A stretch of DNA of 64,000 bases from Ophelia neglecta (taxonomy: Eukaryota). The DNA lies in contig OZ260667.1 of the NCBI GenBank assembly GCA_965285935.1, forward strand, positions 71,486,001-71,550,000, written 5' to 3'. A program made the position numbers. This document shows positions 1 through 6,000 of this stretch, piece after piece. Position 1 is the stretch's first letter. Every line of letters starts with the position of its first letter.

Positions 1-3000
1 GACCTCTTGGCCTTACAGGCGGCGCCCGGTAGGCTAACTCGGCTGGCGGCCTCTTTCCCCTCAACTTTCAATTGTCAAAACTGGGCCAAAAATCGCCGCA
101 TTTTGTAATTTTTTGGTCAGAAATTTGTTTCAGAGGTCAAGGAGAGTTGAATGGTGTCCTTAGATTTTGTGTGGATCGCGTAGTTTGGCCATTTCCTTAT
201 TCGAATTTGATTTTCAATGGGCGAAAATGAGACAAAAAACGCCGAATTTTGTAATTTTTCGGCTAGAAATTTGTTTTAGGGGTCATGGAGAGTTGAATGG
301 TTGCCTTAGATTTTGGGTGGATAGCGTAGTTTGGCCATTTCCTTATTCGATTTTGATTTTCAATGGGCAAAAACGGGCCAAAAATCGCCGAATTTTGTAA
401 TTTTTTGGTCAGAAATTCGTTTTGGAGGTCATTAAGAGTTGATTGGTGGCCTTATATTTTGGGTGGATTGCGTAGTTTGGCCATTTCCTTATTCGATTTT
501 GATTTTCAATGGGCAAAAACGGGCCAAAAATCGCCGAATTTTGTAATTTTTTGGTCAGAAATTCGTTTTGGAGGTCATGGAGAGTTGAATGGTGGCCTTA
601 GATTTTGGGTGGATAGCGTAGTTTGGCCATTTCCTTATTCGATTTTGATTTTCAATGGGCGAAAATAGGACAAAAAACGCCGAATTTTGTAATTTTTTGG
701 CCAGAAATTAGTTTTAGTGGCCATGGAGAGTTGAATGGTGGCCTTAAATTTCAGGTGGATTGCGTAGTTTGGCCATTTCCTTATTCGATTTTGATTTTCA
801 GTTGGCAAAAATATGCCAAAAATCGCCTAATTTTGTAATTTTTGGGTCAGAAATTTGTTTTAGGGGCCATGGAGAGTTGAATGGTGGCCTTAATTTTTGG
901 GTGGATTGCGTAGATTGGCCATTTCCTTATTCGATTTTGATTTTCAATGGGCGGAAATGGGCCAAAAATCGCCGAATTTCAAGTTTTTTGGGCCGGAAAT
1001 GTACTTTGGAGATAAAACATGGTTGATTTAGGTACTTTTAGAGTGATTTTTTAATCGTTTTTTGAATAAGGAACTAGGCTTTCGAACTAGGAACTGGCCA
1101 TTTCCTAGTTCCTAGTTCCTAGTTCCTAGTTCGACTTTGTGTTTTCAATGTGCAAATAATGGAGAAAAATCGCGTTGCCTTTGTGTCTAATGACCTGGTA
1201 GGTATACCAGGAAAGATAAGTCTTCATTAGAAGCCACTGGAAGTTGCCTGGAATTCTTAAAATGGATATTTACTTACTCTCGGCGATTAATGAATAGTGA
1301 ATCGGTTAAGTGCCATTTCCTAATTCATGGTGGGCCAGAAAATTTTGCCACGAGTACTTGTGTTTTATAGGCGTTTCACGCTCCCAGGATCATTTCTAGA
1401 TGGCCAATTTTGCATGTTTTTTCCCGCAAATTGTATACCCCCTCCGACCTCTTGGCCTTACCGGCGGCGCCCGGTAGGCTAACTCGGCTGGCGGCCTCTT
1501 TCCCCTCAACTTTCAATTGTCAAAACTGGGCCAAAAATCGCCGCATTTTGTAATTTTTTTGTCAGAAATTTGTTTCAGAGGTCAAGGAGAGTTGAATGGT
1601 GTCCTTAGATTTTGTGTGGATCGCGTAGTTTGGCCATTTCCTTATTCGAATTTGATTTTCAATGGGCGGAAATGGGCCAAAAATCGCCGAATTTCAAGTT
1701 TTTTGGGCCGGAAATGTACTTTGGAGATAAAACATGGTTGATTTAGGTACTTTTAGAGTGATTTTTTAATCGTTTTTTGAATAAGGAACTAGGCTTTCGA
1801 ACTAGGAACTGGCCATTTCCTAGTTCCTAGTTCCTAGTTCCTAGTTCGACTTTGTGTTTTCAATGTGCAAATAATGGAGAAAAATCGCGTTGCCTTTGTG
1901 TCTAATGACCTGGTAGGTATACCAGGAAAGATAAGTCTTCATTAGAAGCCACTGGAAGTTGCCTGGAATTCTTAAAATGGATATTTACTTACTCTCGGCG
2001 ATTAATGAATAGTGAATCGGTTAAGTGCCATTTCCTAATTCATGGTGGGCCAGAAAATTTTGCCACGAGTACTTGTGTTTTATAGGCGTTTCACGCTCCC
2101 AGGATCATTTCTAGATGGCCAATTTTGCATGTTTTTTCCCGCAAATTGTATACCCCCTCCGACCTCATGGCCTTACCGGCGGCGCCCGGTAGGCTAACTC
2201 GGCTGGCGGCCTCTTTCCCCTCAACTTTCAATTGTCAAAACTGGGCCAAAAATCGCCGCATTTTGTAATTTTTTTGTCAGAAATTTGTTTCAGAGGTCAA
2301 GGAGAGTTGAATGGTGTCCTTAGATTTTGTGTGGATCGCGTAGTTTGGCCATTTCCTTATTCGAATTTGATTTTCAATGGGCGAAAATGAGACAAAAAAC
2401 GCCGAATTTTGTAATTTTTCGGCTAGAAATTTATTTTAGGGGTCATGGAGAGTTGAATGGTTGCCTTAGATTTTGGGTGGATAGCGTAGTTTGGCCATTT
2501 CCTTATTCGATTTTGATTTTCAATGGGCAAAAACGGGCCAAAAATCGCCGAATTTTGTAATTTTTTGGTCAGAAATTCGTTTTGGAGGTCGTTAAGAGTT
2601 GAATGGTGGCCTTAAATTTTGGGTGGATTGCGTAGTTTGGCCATTTCCTTATTCGATTTTGATTTTCAATGGGCAAAAACGGGCCAAAAATCGCCGAATT
2701 TCGTAATTATTTGGTCAGAAATTCGTTTTGGAGGTCATTAAGAGTTGAATGGTGGCCTTATATTTTGGGTGGATTGCGTAGTTTGGCCATTTCCTTATTC
2801 GATTTTGATTTTCAATGGGCAAAAACGGGCCAAAAATCGCCGAATTTCGTAATTTTTTGGTCAGAAATTCGTTTTGGAGGTCATTAAGAGTTGAATGGTG
2901 GCCTTATATTTTGGGTGGATTGCGTAGTTTGGCCATTTCCTTATTCGATTTTGATTTTCAATGGGCAAAAACGGGCCAAAAATCGCCGAATTTCGTAATT

Positions 3001-6000
3001 TTTTGGTCAGAAATTCGTTTTGGAGGTCATTAAGAGTTGAATGGTGGCCTTATATTTTGGGTGGATTGCGTAGTTTGGCCATTTCCTTATTCGATTTTGA
3101 TTTTCAATGGGCAAAAACGGGCCAAAAATCGCCGAATTTTGTAATTTTTTGGTCAGAAATTCGTTTTGGAGGTCATGGAGAGTTGAATGGTGGCCTTAGA
3201 TTTTGGGTGGATTGCGTAGTTTGGCCATTTCCTTATTCGATTTTGATTTTCAATGGGCGAAAATAGGACAAAAAACGCCGAATTTTGTAAGTTTTTGGCC
3301 AGAAATTAGTTTAAGTGGCCATGGAGAGTTGAATGGTGGCCTTAAATTTCAGGTGGATTGCGTAGTTTGGCCATTTCCTTATTCGATTTTGATTTTCAAT
3401 GGGCAAAAATAGGCCAAAAATAGCCTAATTTTGTAATTTTTGGGTCAGAAATTTGTTTTAGGGGCCATGGAGAGTTGAATGGTGGCCTTAAATTTTGGGT
3501 GGATTGCGTAGTTTGGCTATTTCCTTATTCGATTTTGATTTTCCATGGGCAAAAATAGGCCAAAAATCGCCTAATTTTGTAATTTTTGGGTCAGAAATTT
3601 GTTTTAGGGGCCATGGAGAGTTGAATGGTGGCCTTAAATTTTGGGTGGATTGCGTAGATTGGCCATTTTCTTATTCGATTTTGATTTTCAATGGGCGGAA
3701 ATGGGCCAAAAATCGCCGAATTTCAAGTTTTTTGGGCCGGAAATGTACTTTGGAGATGAAACATGGTTGATTTAGGTACTTTTAGAGTGATTTTTTAATC
3801 GTTTTTTTGAATAAGGAACTAGGTTTTCGAACTAGGAACTGGCCATTTCCTAGTTCCTAGTTCCTAGTTCCTAGTTCGACTTTGTGTTTTCAATGTGTAA
3901 ATAATGGTGAAAAATCGCGTTGCCTTTGTGTCTAATGACCTGGTAGGTATACCAGGAAAGATAAGTCATCATTAGAAGCTACTGGAAGTTGCCTGGAATT
4001 CTTAAAATGGATATTTACTTACTCTCGGCGATTAATGAATAGTGAATCGGTTAAGTGCCATTTCCTAATTCATGGTGGGCCAGAAAATTTTGCCACGGGT
4101 ACTTGTGTTTTATAGGCGTTTCACGCTCCCAGGATCATTTCTAGATGGCCAATTTTGCATGTTTTTTCCCGCAAATTGTATACCCCCTCCGACCTCATGG
4201 CCTTACCGGCGGCGCCCGGTAGGCTAACTCGGCTGGCGGCCTCTTTCCCCTCAACTTTCAATGGGCGAAAAAGGGCCAAAAACCGCCGGATTTTGATTCT
4301 TTTTGGGCAGAAATGATCACTAGGGGTCATAAAGAGTGATATTGTGTGCTTAGATCTAGGTTAGTAGGTTTATTTCGAATAAGGAACTAGGAACTGGAAT
4401 TAGGAAATGGCTTGAGTTTCATTTCCTAATTCGAACTAGGAACTAGGAACTAGGAACTAGTAAATCACTTGAGTCTGCTTCATATAGACAGACTATACAA
4501 ACATTGTCAGTCAGACGATACCATCAGTGTTTACTCCATTAGACGCAGTACAGGTTCCACTATATCATGGCCTGACGGGAGGCGGGTAATAATGCAAATC
4601 TGTTCTTTGCAACAATAATGATATGAATGTAAGAAAAATCTGTATTTTAAAGATGTTTTCATTTTCTAAACACTCCCTCCTACAAAATCTATGGTGAAGT
4701 ACTCAGGAAAATCCAAACATACTTGATGTATTTCCCTGTCAATACATAGATGGCGAGAGATGCACTTCTCAGTCTATAGATGGCGAGAGATGCACTTCTC
4801 AGTCGTGTTCGTGTCCCTACATACAAACGAAACCCACCTGAACAAAACTTCCAGGACCACGAGGGTGGGGATAAAATGATCTTACGAGCAACTAACCCTG
4901 TGTCTGCTGGCCTTAACTCGTAACGTTAGTAGTAATTGAGCCCCTCGACAAAATAATCTTTGAGGGAACATGGCATTCCACATAGTTGTTTAAGAAGTAA
5001 ATTGGCTTTTAAATAACTGCCACACTCATAATCAGCAGCGGCCTGATCTTCAAACCCGGTGTTTCTGTTTTGCCAGTAAGTCAAGTTCATCAAAGGCTTG
5101 AACTTTATCGTTCGAATAACAGCTCCTTGTGGAATACAAAGTTCAATTGGAGCCGTTGCAACCGGAGATAAGAAAAAGAAACATTTCGGAAGAAGTTTCA
5201 GGTATATAACGTGGTTTCAGGTATATAACGTTAACAAATTGATTATTTAATCTTGTTAACTTGTGTTAACTTAATAACGATGTGCATAGAGTGTAAATTC
5301 CATTCCAAACTTACATGTACGTTTACATTAAGCGTAATCATCCATATATTAACCTCTTAACTCTAAGCATCTTCTTAACCAATAAATGAAGCCAAAACTT
5401 AGTGTTGTCCCAGAAATTAGGCTTAAGCCGTCCAGAAAGGTGCATGCCCCCCGCTTCCTGGCTTCCGCCCCTCTAAATAGCCCACTCACATTGTTTGTCA
5501 CTATGGCTAATAAAATCTTGCCATCTAAGTCAACAATTCTTAGATAAGGTATGCACCCAGTCTTAATTAATCAAGGCCTGTTTTTGGAAGTGGTCTCAAG
5601 TCTCAATCCGGATTAAAAGCATGATTAAAATGCCTCATCGTTCTTAATTGCCTGAGCAGGGTTTCTGAAATCTAGATCTTAGACCGGGCCATTTTGGTCT
5701 TAAAATCAATCCTAGTCAATGGAAACTATTCTCAGCTAATCGGTAATAGGCTGATATATTCCCAATACTTAACAATGCTTCCGGAAGCCGGGCCCAGACA
5801 CAAACAGCCACAGACCTAGCAGCCACAGACCCAACCCCCTAACAGGTAATAAGAAGTGGATTCTCAAGAGTAAACAATGTATTTAAATTGATATCAAACC
5901 CTGCCTACCTAAAACATGATTATATCTTGTGAGAGGGTATAAATTTGTTTTATTTTACTATTTTGTTGTCGACAAATGTGAAATGTTTTTACGTGGAATC

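What the first reader, a model, noticed from the sequence alone, without database searches (positions are those of the whole stretch)
1..4258. Accordion-like higher-order satellite: ordered monomer variants, variable copy number, near-invariant spacer
Seen: three units contain 6, 1 and 10 full 146-bp monomers before the same terminal block (Z) and ~368-bp spacer. Monomer classes keep a fixed polarity: A-B-C-C'-D-E-Z, then A-Z, then A-B-C-C-C-C-C'-D-E-E-Z. The spacers differ at only a few positions. Inference: this is an array within an array, expanding and contracting in register by unequal exchange or slippage. The repeat-spacer architecture fits a large transposon subterminal region or a macrosatellite better than a simple satellite.
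Basis: partly seen in the sequence, partly recalled or inferred. Interest (0 to 1): 0.7.

Follow-up and report, generated by a model that had tools for sequence, protein, structure and literature searches.

The report
Nested tandem repeat, probably transposon-derived
A non-coding repeat-within-a-repeat in an invertebrate genome, built like the tandem-repeat-carrying miniature transposons known from clams, oysters and flies; real and neatly ordered, but an ordinary kind of repetitive DNA.

Summary
Window 1-4255 holds three head-to-tail units with 6, 1 and 10 exact 146-bp monomers. Each unit ends with the same 204/205-bp block (Z) and a 365-bp spacer. Monomers cluster by position, not by unit: A-B-C-C'-D-E, A, A-B-C4-C'-D-E2. 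Unit lengths differ by exactly 5x146 and 9x146+1 bp.

The region is non-coding and matches no RNA family at its cut-off. It is built from a 15-bp motif found 27 times against 0.06 expected.

The architecture matches tandem-repeat-bearing non-autonomous elements of the pearl/DTC84/HINE kind. It has core repeats of about 150 bp in fixed order whatever their number, a low-variability repeat end, an adjacent microsatellite, a hairpin and short inverted repeats. For DTC84, ordered variants are already described (PMC3879986).

My reading: one such module was tandemised locally, then gained and lost whole monomers in register. Mobility, element ends and genome-wide copies could not be tested, because no eukaryotic DNA collection was available. 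New member of a known kind; modest interest.

The parts
1..65 (+). Last 65 bp of a spacer copy (unit 0); the array runs off the left end of the window
   Evidence: Identical to 1446-1510 except one private substitution at position 17
66..941 (+). Unit 1: six 146-bp monomers, classes A-B-C-C'-D-E
942..1145 (+). Z block of unit 1. The first 86 bp are a truncated monomer. A hairpin at about 1063-1133 includes (TTCCTAG)4.4 at 1102-1132
   Evidence: nhmmer monomer profile E 2e-12 over 942-1027; TRF; DNA fold of 1055-1145 gives -19.1 kcal/mol, z -6.7, 0 of 200 shuffles as good
1146..1510 (+). Spacer of unit 1 (365 bp), with one + strand copy of the 15-bp motif at 1312-1326. Its start is only marginally monomer-like
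   Evidence: nhmmer E 0.085 for 1143-1261
1511..1656 (+). Unit 2: a single monomer, class A, identical to unit 3's A
   Evidence: 0 mismatches to 2226-2371 and 1 to 66-211
1657..2225 (+). Z block (1657-1860) and spacer (1861-2225) of unit 2
   Evidence: 1 difference in 569 bp from unit 1's block
2226..3685 (+). Unit 3: ten 146-bp monomers, A-B-C-C-C-C-C'-D-E-E
3686..4255 (+). Z block (3686-3890, with a 1-bp insertion) and spacer (3891-4255) of unit 3
   Evidence: 7 substitutions and 1 indel versus units 1 and 2
4256..4474 (+). Diverged terminal block. It holds a monomer relic (4256-4360), a palindrome with a 13-bp stem (4397-4432), (GAACTAG)4 at 4433-4460 in the opposite orientation to Z's microsatellite, and a 22-nt echo of the palindrome's left arm and loop at 4453-4474
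   Evidence: nhmmer E 1e-16; alignment to Z; fold z -4.85; 38-nt inverted repeat 3845-3882 / 4428-4465, 95% complementary; 18 of 22 identity with 0 of 500 shuffles as good

Best explanation
This is a short, non-coding, nested tandem repeat. At least three complete head-to-tail copies of a composite module are present. Each module is a 365-bp spacer, then 1-10 ordered 146-bp core repeats, then a 204-bp end block that is a truncated core repeat plus a hairpin carrying a heptanucleotide microsatellite. An older, diverged copy of the end block closes the array on the right.

The module has the anatomy of the tandem-repeat-carrying non-autonomous transposons of the pearl/DTC84/HINE (Helentron-associated) kind. 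I take it to be one such element, or its remnant, that was tandemised at this locus.

Shown:
- The ordered series A-B-C-C'-D-E existed before the module was duplicated. Classes differ by 8-16%, whereas matching monomers of different units differ by no more than 1.6%.
- After duplication, whole monomers were lost (B to E in unit 2) or gained (C and E in unit 3), strictly in register.

Inferred:
- These changes come from unequal exchange or replication slippage, seeded in the junction-spanning stretch that all monomers share (the last 41 columns plus the first 7 bases).
- The 15-bp motif GCCATTTCCTWRTTC is the element's protein-recognition or structure-forming site. It occurs once per monomer, once per spacer, and in both orientations in the hairpins.
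- No host function is implied.
For: - Structure and order:.
- In-register changes: unit lengths 1445, 715 and 2030 bp differ by 5.0x146 and 9x146+1.
- Relative ages: matching unit 1 and unit 3 monomers differ at 14 of 876 sites. Z+spacer differs at 1 of 569 (units 1-2) or 8 of 570 (unit 3). Classes differ by 11-23 of 146.
- Recent local duplication: unit 3 monomers 4-6 differ by 0-1 and share a private C at alignment column 39.
- Low-variability repeat end: 5 of 41 columns vary in columns 106-146, against 39 of 105 in columns 1-105 (Fisher p 0.0027).
- Motif: 27 matches with at most 1 mismatch, all within 188-4411, against 0.06 expected; 0 of 100 shuffles reached 27.
- Hairpins: Z z -6.7 and end block z -4.85. 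Short inverted repeats of 14-38 nt built from the motif.
- Microsatellite next to the core repeats.
- Non-coding: the 103-aa monomer frame has 0 relatives in the word-indexed search and 0 in 1.84 billion representatives. No Rfam family reaches its cut-off in the region.
- Published parallels: DTC84 is L flank + (core repeats)1-5 + microsatellite + R flank, with variants in fixed position regardless of copy number and a low-variability repeat end holding a palindrome (PMC3879986, abstract and passages). Cg_HINE has subTIR, IR and microsatellite, then a 10-500 bp variable segment, then central repeats mostly 140-180 bp (one cluster 146 bp), then subTIR and palindrome (PMC7492417, sections 3, 7 and 9 and passages).
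Against: - Nothing shows mobility. There is no second copy of any part of 1-4700 in the other 59 kb (blastn 0 hits; the monomer profile finds nothing significant).
- Element ends, TT target and empty sites cannot be defined from one locus.
- No Rep/helicase or transposase is in the window. The only Pfam hits are a BEL/Pao fragment (4 of the 7 ORFs; 0 of 64 ORFs).
- The microsatellite is a heptamer embedded in the hairpin, not the 3-8-nt (mostly 4-nt) tract described for HINEs.
- With up to 10 core repeats and a head-to-tail series of whole modules, it goes beyond the cited element descriptions.
- No sequence-level link to any described family was obtained. A 24-nt conserved monomer stretch is in 0 papers. 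Published consensus sequences sit in supplements I could not open.
- Several different placements of 'subTIRs' fit the motif-rich sequence about equally well, so that resemblance is weak evidence.
Confidence: 0.55

Rival explanations
1. A purely local macrosatellite with no transposon history. A short 146-bp satellite array acquired unrelated spacer DNA, and the composite was duplicated by unequal crossing-over.
For: Only one locus is seen. The start of the spacer is marginally monomer-like (E 0.085) and the spacer carries one motif copy, so it could be decayed monomers. Divergent edge monomers (A is the most divergent class, branch 0.079) are what unequal exchange alone produces.
Against: The combination of microsatellite, hairpin, short inverted repeats and a distinct end block is the signature of tandem-repeat-bearing elements (PMC3879986, PMC7492417). 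Plain satellites do not need it.
Confidence: 0.2
2. A rolling-circle concatemer. A Helitron/Helentron-type element failed to terminate and integrated as several truncated copies followed by one copy with the true 3' end.
For: There are several inner junctions (Z) but a single different right-end block with its own palindrome. The review PMC12628747 (passages) reports, from Xiong et al. 2016, arrays with multiple 5' ends and a single 3' end.
Against: - Inner junctions keep a hairpin homologous to both arms of the end palindrome (13 of 15 and 12 of 13 matches, my count on the alignment), and it is stronger (-19.1 against -14.3 kcal/mol). So the terminator was not removed.
- The end block is old and diverged, not the continuation of an inner copy.
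- The last copy lacks monomers A-E.
- No Rep/helicase gene is in the window.
Confidence: 0.12
3. The long repetitive terminal or subterminal region of a large DNA transposon (foldback, Galileo, Tetris or CACTA-like), whose body and other end lie left of the window.
For: A 15-bp motif is reiterated in direct and inverted orientation, as transposase-binding subterminal repeats are (from general knowledge, recalled). A 38-nt inverted repeat brackets 3845-4465. The array is cut by the window's left end.
Against: There is no inverted copy and no transposase in 59 kb on the right. Motif spacing of exactly 146 bp and near-identical 569-bp blocks look like tandem duplication rather than a terminal gradient.
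Confidence: 0.08
4. The copy numbers (6/1/10) or the number of units are assembly artefacts of a collapsed or mis-joined repeat.
For: Units 1 and 2 are almost identical: 1 of 569 and 1 of 146 differences. The array touches the window edge.
Against: There is no N. Length differences are exact multiples of 146. Every unit and every spacer-end copy has private substitutions.
Confidence: 0.08
5. A regulatory accordion like the rDNA intergenic spacer, with repeated enhancer-like subrepeats between duplicated spacer promoters.
For: The alternation of variable subrepeat blocks with near-invariant islands resembles the Xenopus rDNA spacer (recalled, not checked in any call).
Against: There is no rRNA or other RNA gene in the window at Rfam cut-offs, apart from a weak tRNA-like hit 42 kb away. 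Only sub-threshold hairpin matches fall in 900-4700.
Confidence: 0.03

Closest known systems
DTC84 / pearl family of tandem-repeat-containing MITEs of bivalves (PMC3879986; abstract and passages read)
   Same: Both are modular: flank, ordered core repeats of about 150 bp, microsatellite, flank. Variant position is fixed whatever the copy number. A segment of reduced variability lies at the repeat end, next to the junction. Short inverted repeats are present, and a spacer segment lies between flank and repeats.
   Different: Here there are up to 10 repeats against 5. The microsatellite is a heptamer inside a hairpin, against ACGG/ACGA. The spacer is 365 bp against about 70-160 bp. Whole modules are joined head to tail. 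Dispersal and AA/TT ends are not shown. No sequence comparison was possible, because the consensus sequences are in figures and supplements.
HINE: Helentron-associated interspersed elements (DINE-1, Cg_HINE; PMC4067079 passages; PMC7492417 sections 3, 7, 9 and passages)
   Same: Central satellite-like repeats in the 140-180 bp range (one oyster cluster averages 146 bp). A microsatellite, a short inverted repeat close to it, a 10-500 bp variable segment before the repeats, and a palindrome near one end.
   Different: SubTIR pairs, TT insertion without target duplication, and an autonomous partner could not be established. The motif-rich sequence allows several equally good subTIR placements.
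Tandem arrays of truncated Helitrons made by rolling-circle amplification (Xiong et al. 2016, known to me only through passages of the review PMC12628747)
   Same: A head-to-tail series of element copies with one distinct end block at one side.
   Different: Inner copies here keep the hairpin, and the end block is diverged rather than a full-length continuation.
Foldback-type elements with internal tandem repeats (Tetris, mentioned in PMC7492417 section 3; FB and Galileo recalled)
   Same: Tandem repeats inside a non-autonomous DNA element that can seed satellites.
   Different: No pair of long inverted terminal arrays is visible.
Higher-order repeats of classical satellites (alpha satellite; recalled)
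   Same: Ordered, diverged monomers are repeated as a larger unit.
   Different: The unit length is not fixed (715-2030 bp). Arrays are very short. Units are separated by non-satellite spacer DNA.

Membership tests
HINE / pearl / DTC84-type tandem-repeat-bearing non-autonomous elements | Central array of satellite-like repeats (about 140-180 bp) in one orientation | tested here: met
   17 monomers of 146 bp, all on the + strand, with no indels
HINE / pearl / DTC84-type tandem-repeat-bearing non-autonomous elements | Short microsatellite next to the core-repeat array or in the left flank | tested here: met
   (TTCCTAG)4.4 at 1102-1132, 1817-1847 and 3847-3877; (GAACTAG)4 at 4433-4460. The unit is 7 nt, within the 3-8 nt range reported for Cg_HINE.
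HINE / pearl / DTC84-type tandem-repeat-bearing non-autonomous elements | Complementary 11-15-bp subterminal inverted repeats, 2-4 nt from the 5' end and 38-60 nt from the 3' end | tested here: inconclusive
   Many 14-38-nt inverted pairs exist, for example 4057-4071 / 4397-4411 (15 nt, 100%). All are copies of one reiterated motif, and the element ends are unknown.
HINE / pearl / DTC84-type tandem-repeat-bearing non-autonomous elements | Palindrome or stem-loop 8-35 nt from the 3' terminus | tested here: inconclusive
   A 13-bp-stem palindrome at 4397-4432 lies 30-45 nt from where repeat-related sequence stops. The terminus itself is not defined.
HINE / pearl / DTC84-type tandem-repeat-bearing non-autonomous elements | Insertion into TT (AA) without target-site duplication, confirmed by empty sites | not testable with these tools
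   Needs other copies or paralogous empty sites. No eukaryotic DNA collection was available.
HINE / pearl / DTC84-type tandem-repeat-bearing non-autonomous elements | Many dispersed copies in the genome | not testable with these tools
   There is no other copy in this 64-kb window.
HINE / pearl / DTC84-type tandem-repeat-bearing non-autonomous elements | Autonomous partner (Rep/helicase/endonuclease) sharing the termini | not testable with these tools
   None in the window. The only Pfam hits are BEL/Pao domains.
Classical satellite DNA with higher-order repeats | Long homogeneous arrays with a higher-order unit of fixed length | tested here: not met
   The longest monomer run is 10 copies (1.46 kb). 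Units are 1445, 715 and 2030 bp. What lies left of the window is unknown.
Foldback / long-TIR DNA transposons | Two long inverted terminal arrays of the same repeats | tested here: inconclusive
   There is no inverted copy in 4701-64000. The left side was not visible.
rDNA intergenic-spacer subrepeat arrays | Location between rRNA genes | tested here: not met
   No rRNA match in the 64 kb.
Macrosatellite (descriptive class) | Tandem units of hundreds of bp to kb, near-identical, head to tail | tested here: met
   Three complete units plus two partial ones, 98.4-99.8% identical in shared parts. Copy-number polymorphism between individuals was not testable.

The most novel reading that the evidence does not exclude
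The locus catches the birth of a satellite from a Helentron-type non-autonomous element in a marine invertebrate lineage where such tandem-repeat carriers have hardly been described. On this reading the 15-bp motif, repeated 27 times (once per 146-bp repeat and in inverted pairs in the hairpins), is the binding or nicking site of the element's Rep protein. The hairpin junctions are rolling-circle termination and re-initiation scars, so whole modules and single repeats are both added and removed by the same enzyme rather than by host recombination.
Probability: 0.12. Interest if true: 0.5.

Novelty: new member of a known kind. Interest (0 to 1): 0.28.

Why it matters
It is a clean, small example of how ordered repeat variants persist while copy number changes in whole-repeat steps, and of a transposon-like module turning into a tandem array. 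If the source genome holds dispersed copies, this locus gives a ready-made case for dating module duplication against monomer gain and loss. It also gives a candidate recognition motif to test. It does not open a new question: ordered core-repeat variants (DTC84) and tandemised elements are already described.

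Tried and rejected
- Other copies in the window: blastn of 1-4700 against 4701-64000 gave 0 hits. A monomer profile found nothing significant outside 1-4360.
- Coding potential: the longest monomer frame (103 aa) has no relative, so coding is rejected.
- RNA genes: none at Rfam cut-offs in the region. Only sub-threshold microRNA-precursor look-alikes fall on the Z hairpin (27-28 bits against an 80-bit cut-off), which I take as hairpin artefacts.
- GC-rich end of the spacer as a Helitron-style terminal hairpin: its fold is no better than shuffles (z 0.2). 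Rejected.
- Whole monomer as a structured strand: z -2.0, with 7 of 200 shuffles as good. Not persuasive.
- Monomer A as a hybrid of the diverged end monomer and an array monomer, which would date the first duplication: by my reading, A shares none of the end block's private bases. Rejected.
- Unit 2 as a recombinant of units 1 and 3: one private mutation in unit 1's A explains the pattern as well. Not needed.
- Literature by sequence: a 24-nt conserved stretch is in 0 papers.
- Literature by topic: 7 papers were listed for cnidarian/coral satellite terms, none on a 146-bp family.
- Prokaryotic genome contigs: 0 matches, as expected for eukaryotic DNA.
- Naming the organism: the BEL/Pao frame's best named relatives are coral, mussel, hemichordate and nemertean proteins at about 43-59% identity. 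That is enough to say marine invertebrate and not human, but not enough to name a taxon.
- Telomere repeats: none.

Full report
**Context.** The window has no N and is about 39% G+C. It has few long open frames. The only protein domains found are those of a broken BEL/Pao retrotransposon at about 23.9-26.6 kb. Four of the 7 ORFs hit Pao peptidase, integrase or DUF5641 domains. In one search, 0 of 64 further ORFs had any Pfam hit. Those 64 came from the 79 ORFs of at least 75 aa right of 4500 listed. I left out 10 that overlap the Pao region already scanned and 5 inside a 17-bp minisatellite.

The best named relatives of the Pao frame are coral, mussel, hemichordate and nemertean proteins at 43-59% identity. 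BEL/Pao elements and these relatives point to a marine invertebrate. I do not take the contig for human. No spliced gene model was attempted.

TRF reports 146-bp arrays at 66-979 and 2226-3723. Monomers start at 66 to 796 (six), 1511 (one) and 2226 to 3540 (ten). Each run is followed by the same block Z at 942, 1657 and 3686. All 17 monomers align without indels.

- Within a position class there are 0-7 mismatches (19 pairs). Between classes there are 11-23 (107 pairs, excluding C versus C', which differ by 4-6).
- A maximum-likelihood tree recovers A, B, C and D with starred support and E with 87/85. C' lies unresolved at the base of C. The six labels need the minimum of 5 changes, and 0 of 200 shuffles were as low.
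- The Z+spacer blocks are 569, 569 and 570 bp, with 1 difference between units 1 and 2 and 8 for unit 3.
- A fourth spacer end sits at 1-65, so the array continues beyond the window's left edge.

After the last spacer the sequence does not return to unique DNA. Region 4256-4360 is a diverged monomer (profile E 1e-16). It is followed by a block homologous to Z, with these features:

- A palindrome with a 13-bp stem at 4397-4432 (z -4.85).
- A (GAACTAG)4 tract, which is the reverse complement of Z's (TTCCTAG)4.4. This gives a 38-nt, 95% complementary inverted repeat between 3845-3882 and 4428-4465.
- A 22-nt echo of the palindrome's left arm and loop at 4453-4474 (18 of 22 identical; 0 of 500 shuffles as good).

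Z itself is a truncated monomer (86 bp, E 2e-12) followed by a strong hairpin (-19.1 kcal/mol, z -6.7).

**One motif builds everything.** GCCATTTCCTWRTTC, allowing 1 mismatch, occurs 27 times, all between 188 and 4411, against 0.06 expected. The copies are distributed as follows:

- Once in each of the 17 monomers, on the + strand.
- Once in each of the 3 spacers, on the + strand.
- Once on each strand in each of the 3 Z hairpins.
- Once, on the - strand, in the end block.

The motif lies in the least variable part of the monomer. Columns 106-146 have 5 variable columns of 41, against 39 of 105 elsewhere (p 0.0027).

**History that the sequence shows.** Unit lengths of 1445, 715 and 2030 bp differ by exactly 5 and 9 monomers, plus 1 bp. 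Matching monomers of units 1 and 3 differ at 14 of 876 sites. Classes differ by 8-16%. So the ordered series is several times older than the duplication of the unit.

Units 1 and 2 share the Z+spacer type and the T at position 7 of the preceding spacer end. Unit 3 is the outlier. Unit 2 is therefore a sister of unit 1 that lost B to E, a deletion of exactly 730 bp. Its A keeps the A-specific base at column 140, and its Z is intact. This places the joint within about 18 identical bases at the monomer boundary (my reading).

Monomers 4-6 of unit 3 differ by 0-1 and share a private C at column 39, so they are recent local duplications. C' is simply the less derived sister of C; no recombination needs to be invoked.

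**What it is not.**

- The 103-aa frame through the monomers has no relative in either protein search.
- No Rfam family reaches its cut-off in the region. Weak microRNA-precursor matches on the Z hairpin score 27-28 bits against 80.
- There is no rRNA gene and no telomere repeat in the window.
- There is no other copy, direct or inverted, in the remaining 59 kb.
- The spacer's GC-rich end does not fold better than shuffles.

**Comparison with what is known.**

- *DTC84.* Satovic and Plohl described it in the clam Donax trunculus as L flank + (core repeats)1-5 + microsatellite + R flank. [quoted passage not shown] Variability is reduced near the repeat end, where a palindrome was proposed as a hotspot for length change. 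Spacer segments lie between flank and repeats (PMC3879986, abstract and passages).
- *HINEs.* Such elements were later classed as non-autonomous Helentrons. Their features are 11-15-bp subterminal inverted repeats, an inverted repeat and microsatellite on the left, a 10-500 bp variable segment, central repeats mostly of 140-180 bp (one oyster cluster averages 146 bp), and a palindrome near the 3' end. They insert into TT without duplication (PMC7492417 sections 3, 7 and 9 and passages; PMC4067079 passages).
- *Tandemised elements.* Whole Helitron-type elements can stand in tandem, with several 5' ends and one 3' end, explained by rolling-circle amplification (review PMC12628747, passages).

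The present locus has the central repeats, the ordered variants, the quiet repeat end, the microsatellite, a hairpin and short inverted repeats. What could not be tested is mobility: ends, target site, dispersed copies and an autonomous partner. The motif-rich sequence allows several equally good placements of 'subTIRs', so I do not count that feature as met.

**Mechanism.** I commit to this reading: a tandem-repeat-bearing non-autonomous element, or its relic, was tandemised locally. It now behaves as a small macrosatellite in which whole monomers are gained and lost in register, by unequal exchange or slippage seeded in the shared junction-spanning stretch.

A rolling-circle origin of the unit series is possible. 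It is weakened because the inner junctions keep a hairpin homologous to, and stronger than, the end palindrome, and because the end block is old and diverged.

**Limits.**

- As a result, the genome-wide copy number of the spacer, the sequence to the left of the window and read support all stayed unchecked.
- That no paper prints this repeat rests on one exact-string search and one topic search.

**Verdict.** The feature is real and accurately described. The accordion idea is supported. The best-fitting category is already known, so this is a new member of a known kind, of modest interest.

Noticed in passing
window 23057-26610 (+): Fragment of a BEL/Pao LTR retrotransposon. Pao peptidase, a weak RNase H match, integrase zinc-binding and core domains and DUF5641 are spread over at least five successive frames, so it is broken by frame shifts or stops. 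Local G+C rises to 0.46. The self-comparison found no LTR pair.
   Followed up: partly
window 57025-57887: A 17-bp minisatellite of about 50 copies at 73% matches, in a strongly T-rich stretch with AT skew -0.29.
   Followed up: no
window 66-4255 versus 4500-64000: The array is not CpG-depleted. Observed/expected CpG is 1.0 in the array and 1.16 in unit 3's monomers, against 0.73 in the rest of the window. This could mean youth, lack of germline methylation, or constraint on the CpG-containing positions.
   Followed up: no
window 6608-6790: A 183-bp stretch matches its own reverse complement (68% over 202 aligned columns). It looks like a foldback or MITE-like structure.
   Followed up: no
window 5577-5798 / 36258-36495; 37198-37379 / 58069-58251; 13536-13625 / 49845-49934: Three pairs of dispersed direct repeats (71%, 86% and 82% identity), unrelated to the array. 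They are presumably other interspersed elements.
   Followed up: no
window 46525-46591 (-): A tRNA-like match just above the Rfam cut-off (31.4 against 29 bits), not called by ARAGORN. It may be a tRNA-derived SINE head or a pseudogene. Nearby, 46265-46311 matches 17967-18012 in inverted orientation at 91%.
   Followed up: no
window 4746-4804 and 5195-5231: Perfect two-copy direct repeats of 30 bp and 19 bp lie just right of the array. No link to the array was found.
   Followed up: no
window 33357-33386: An uninterrupted run of 30 A, possibly the tail of a retroposed sequence.
   Followed up: no
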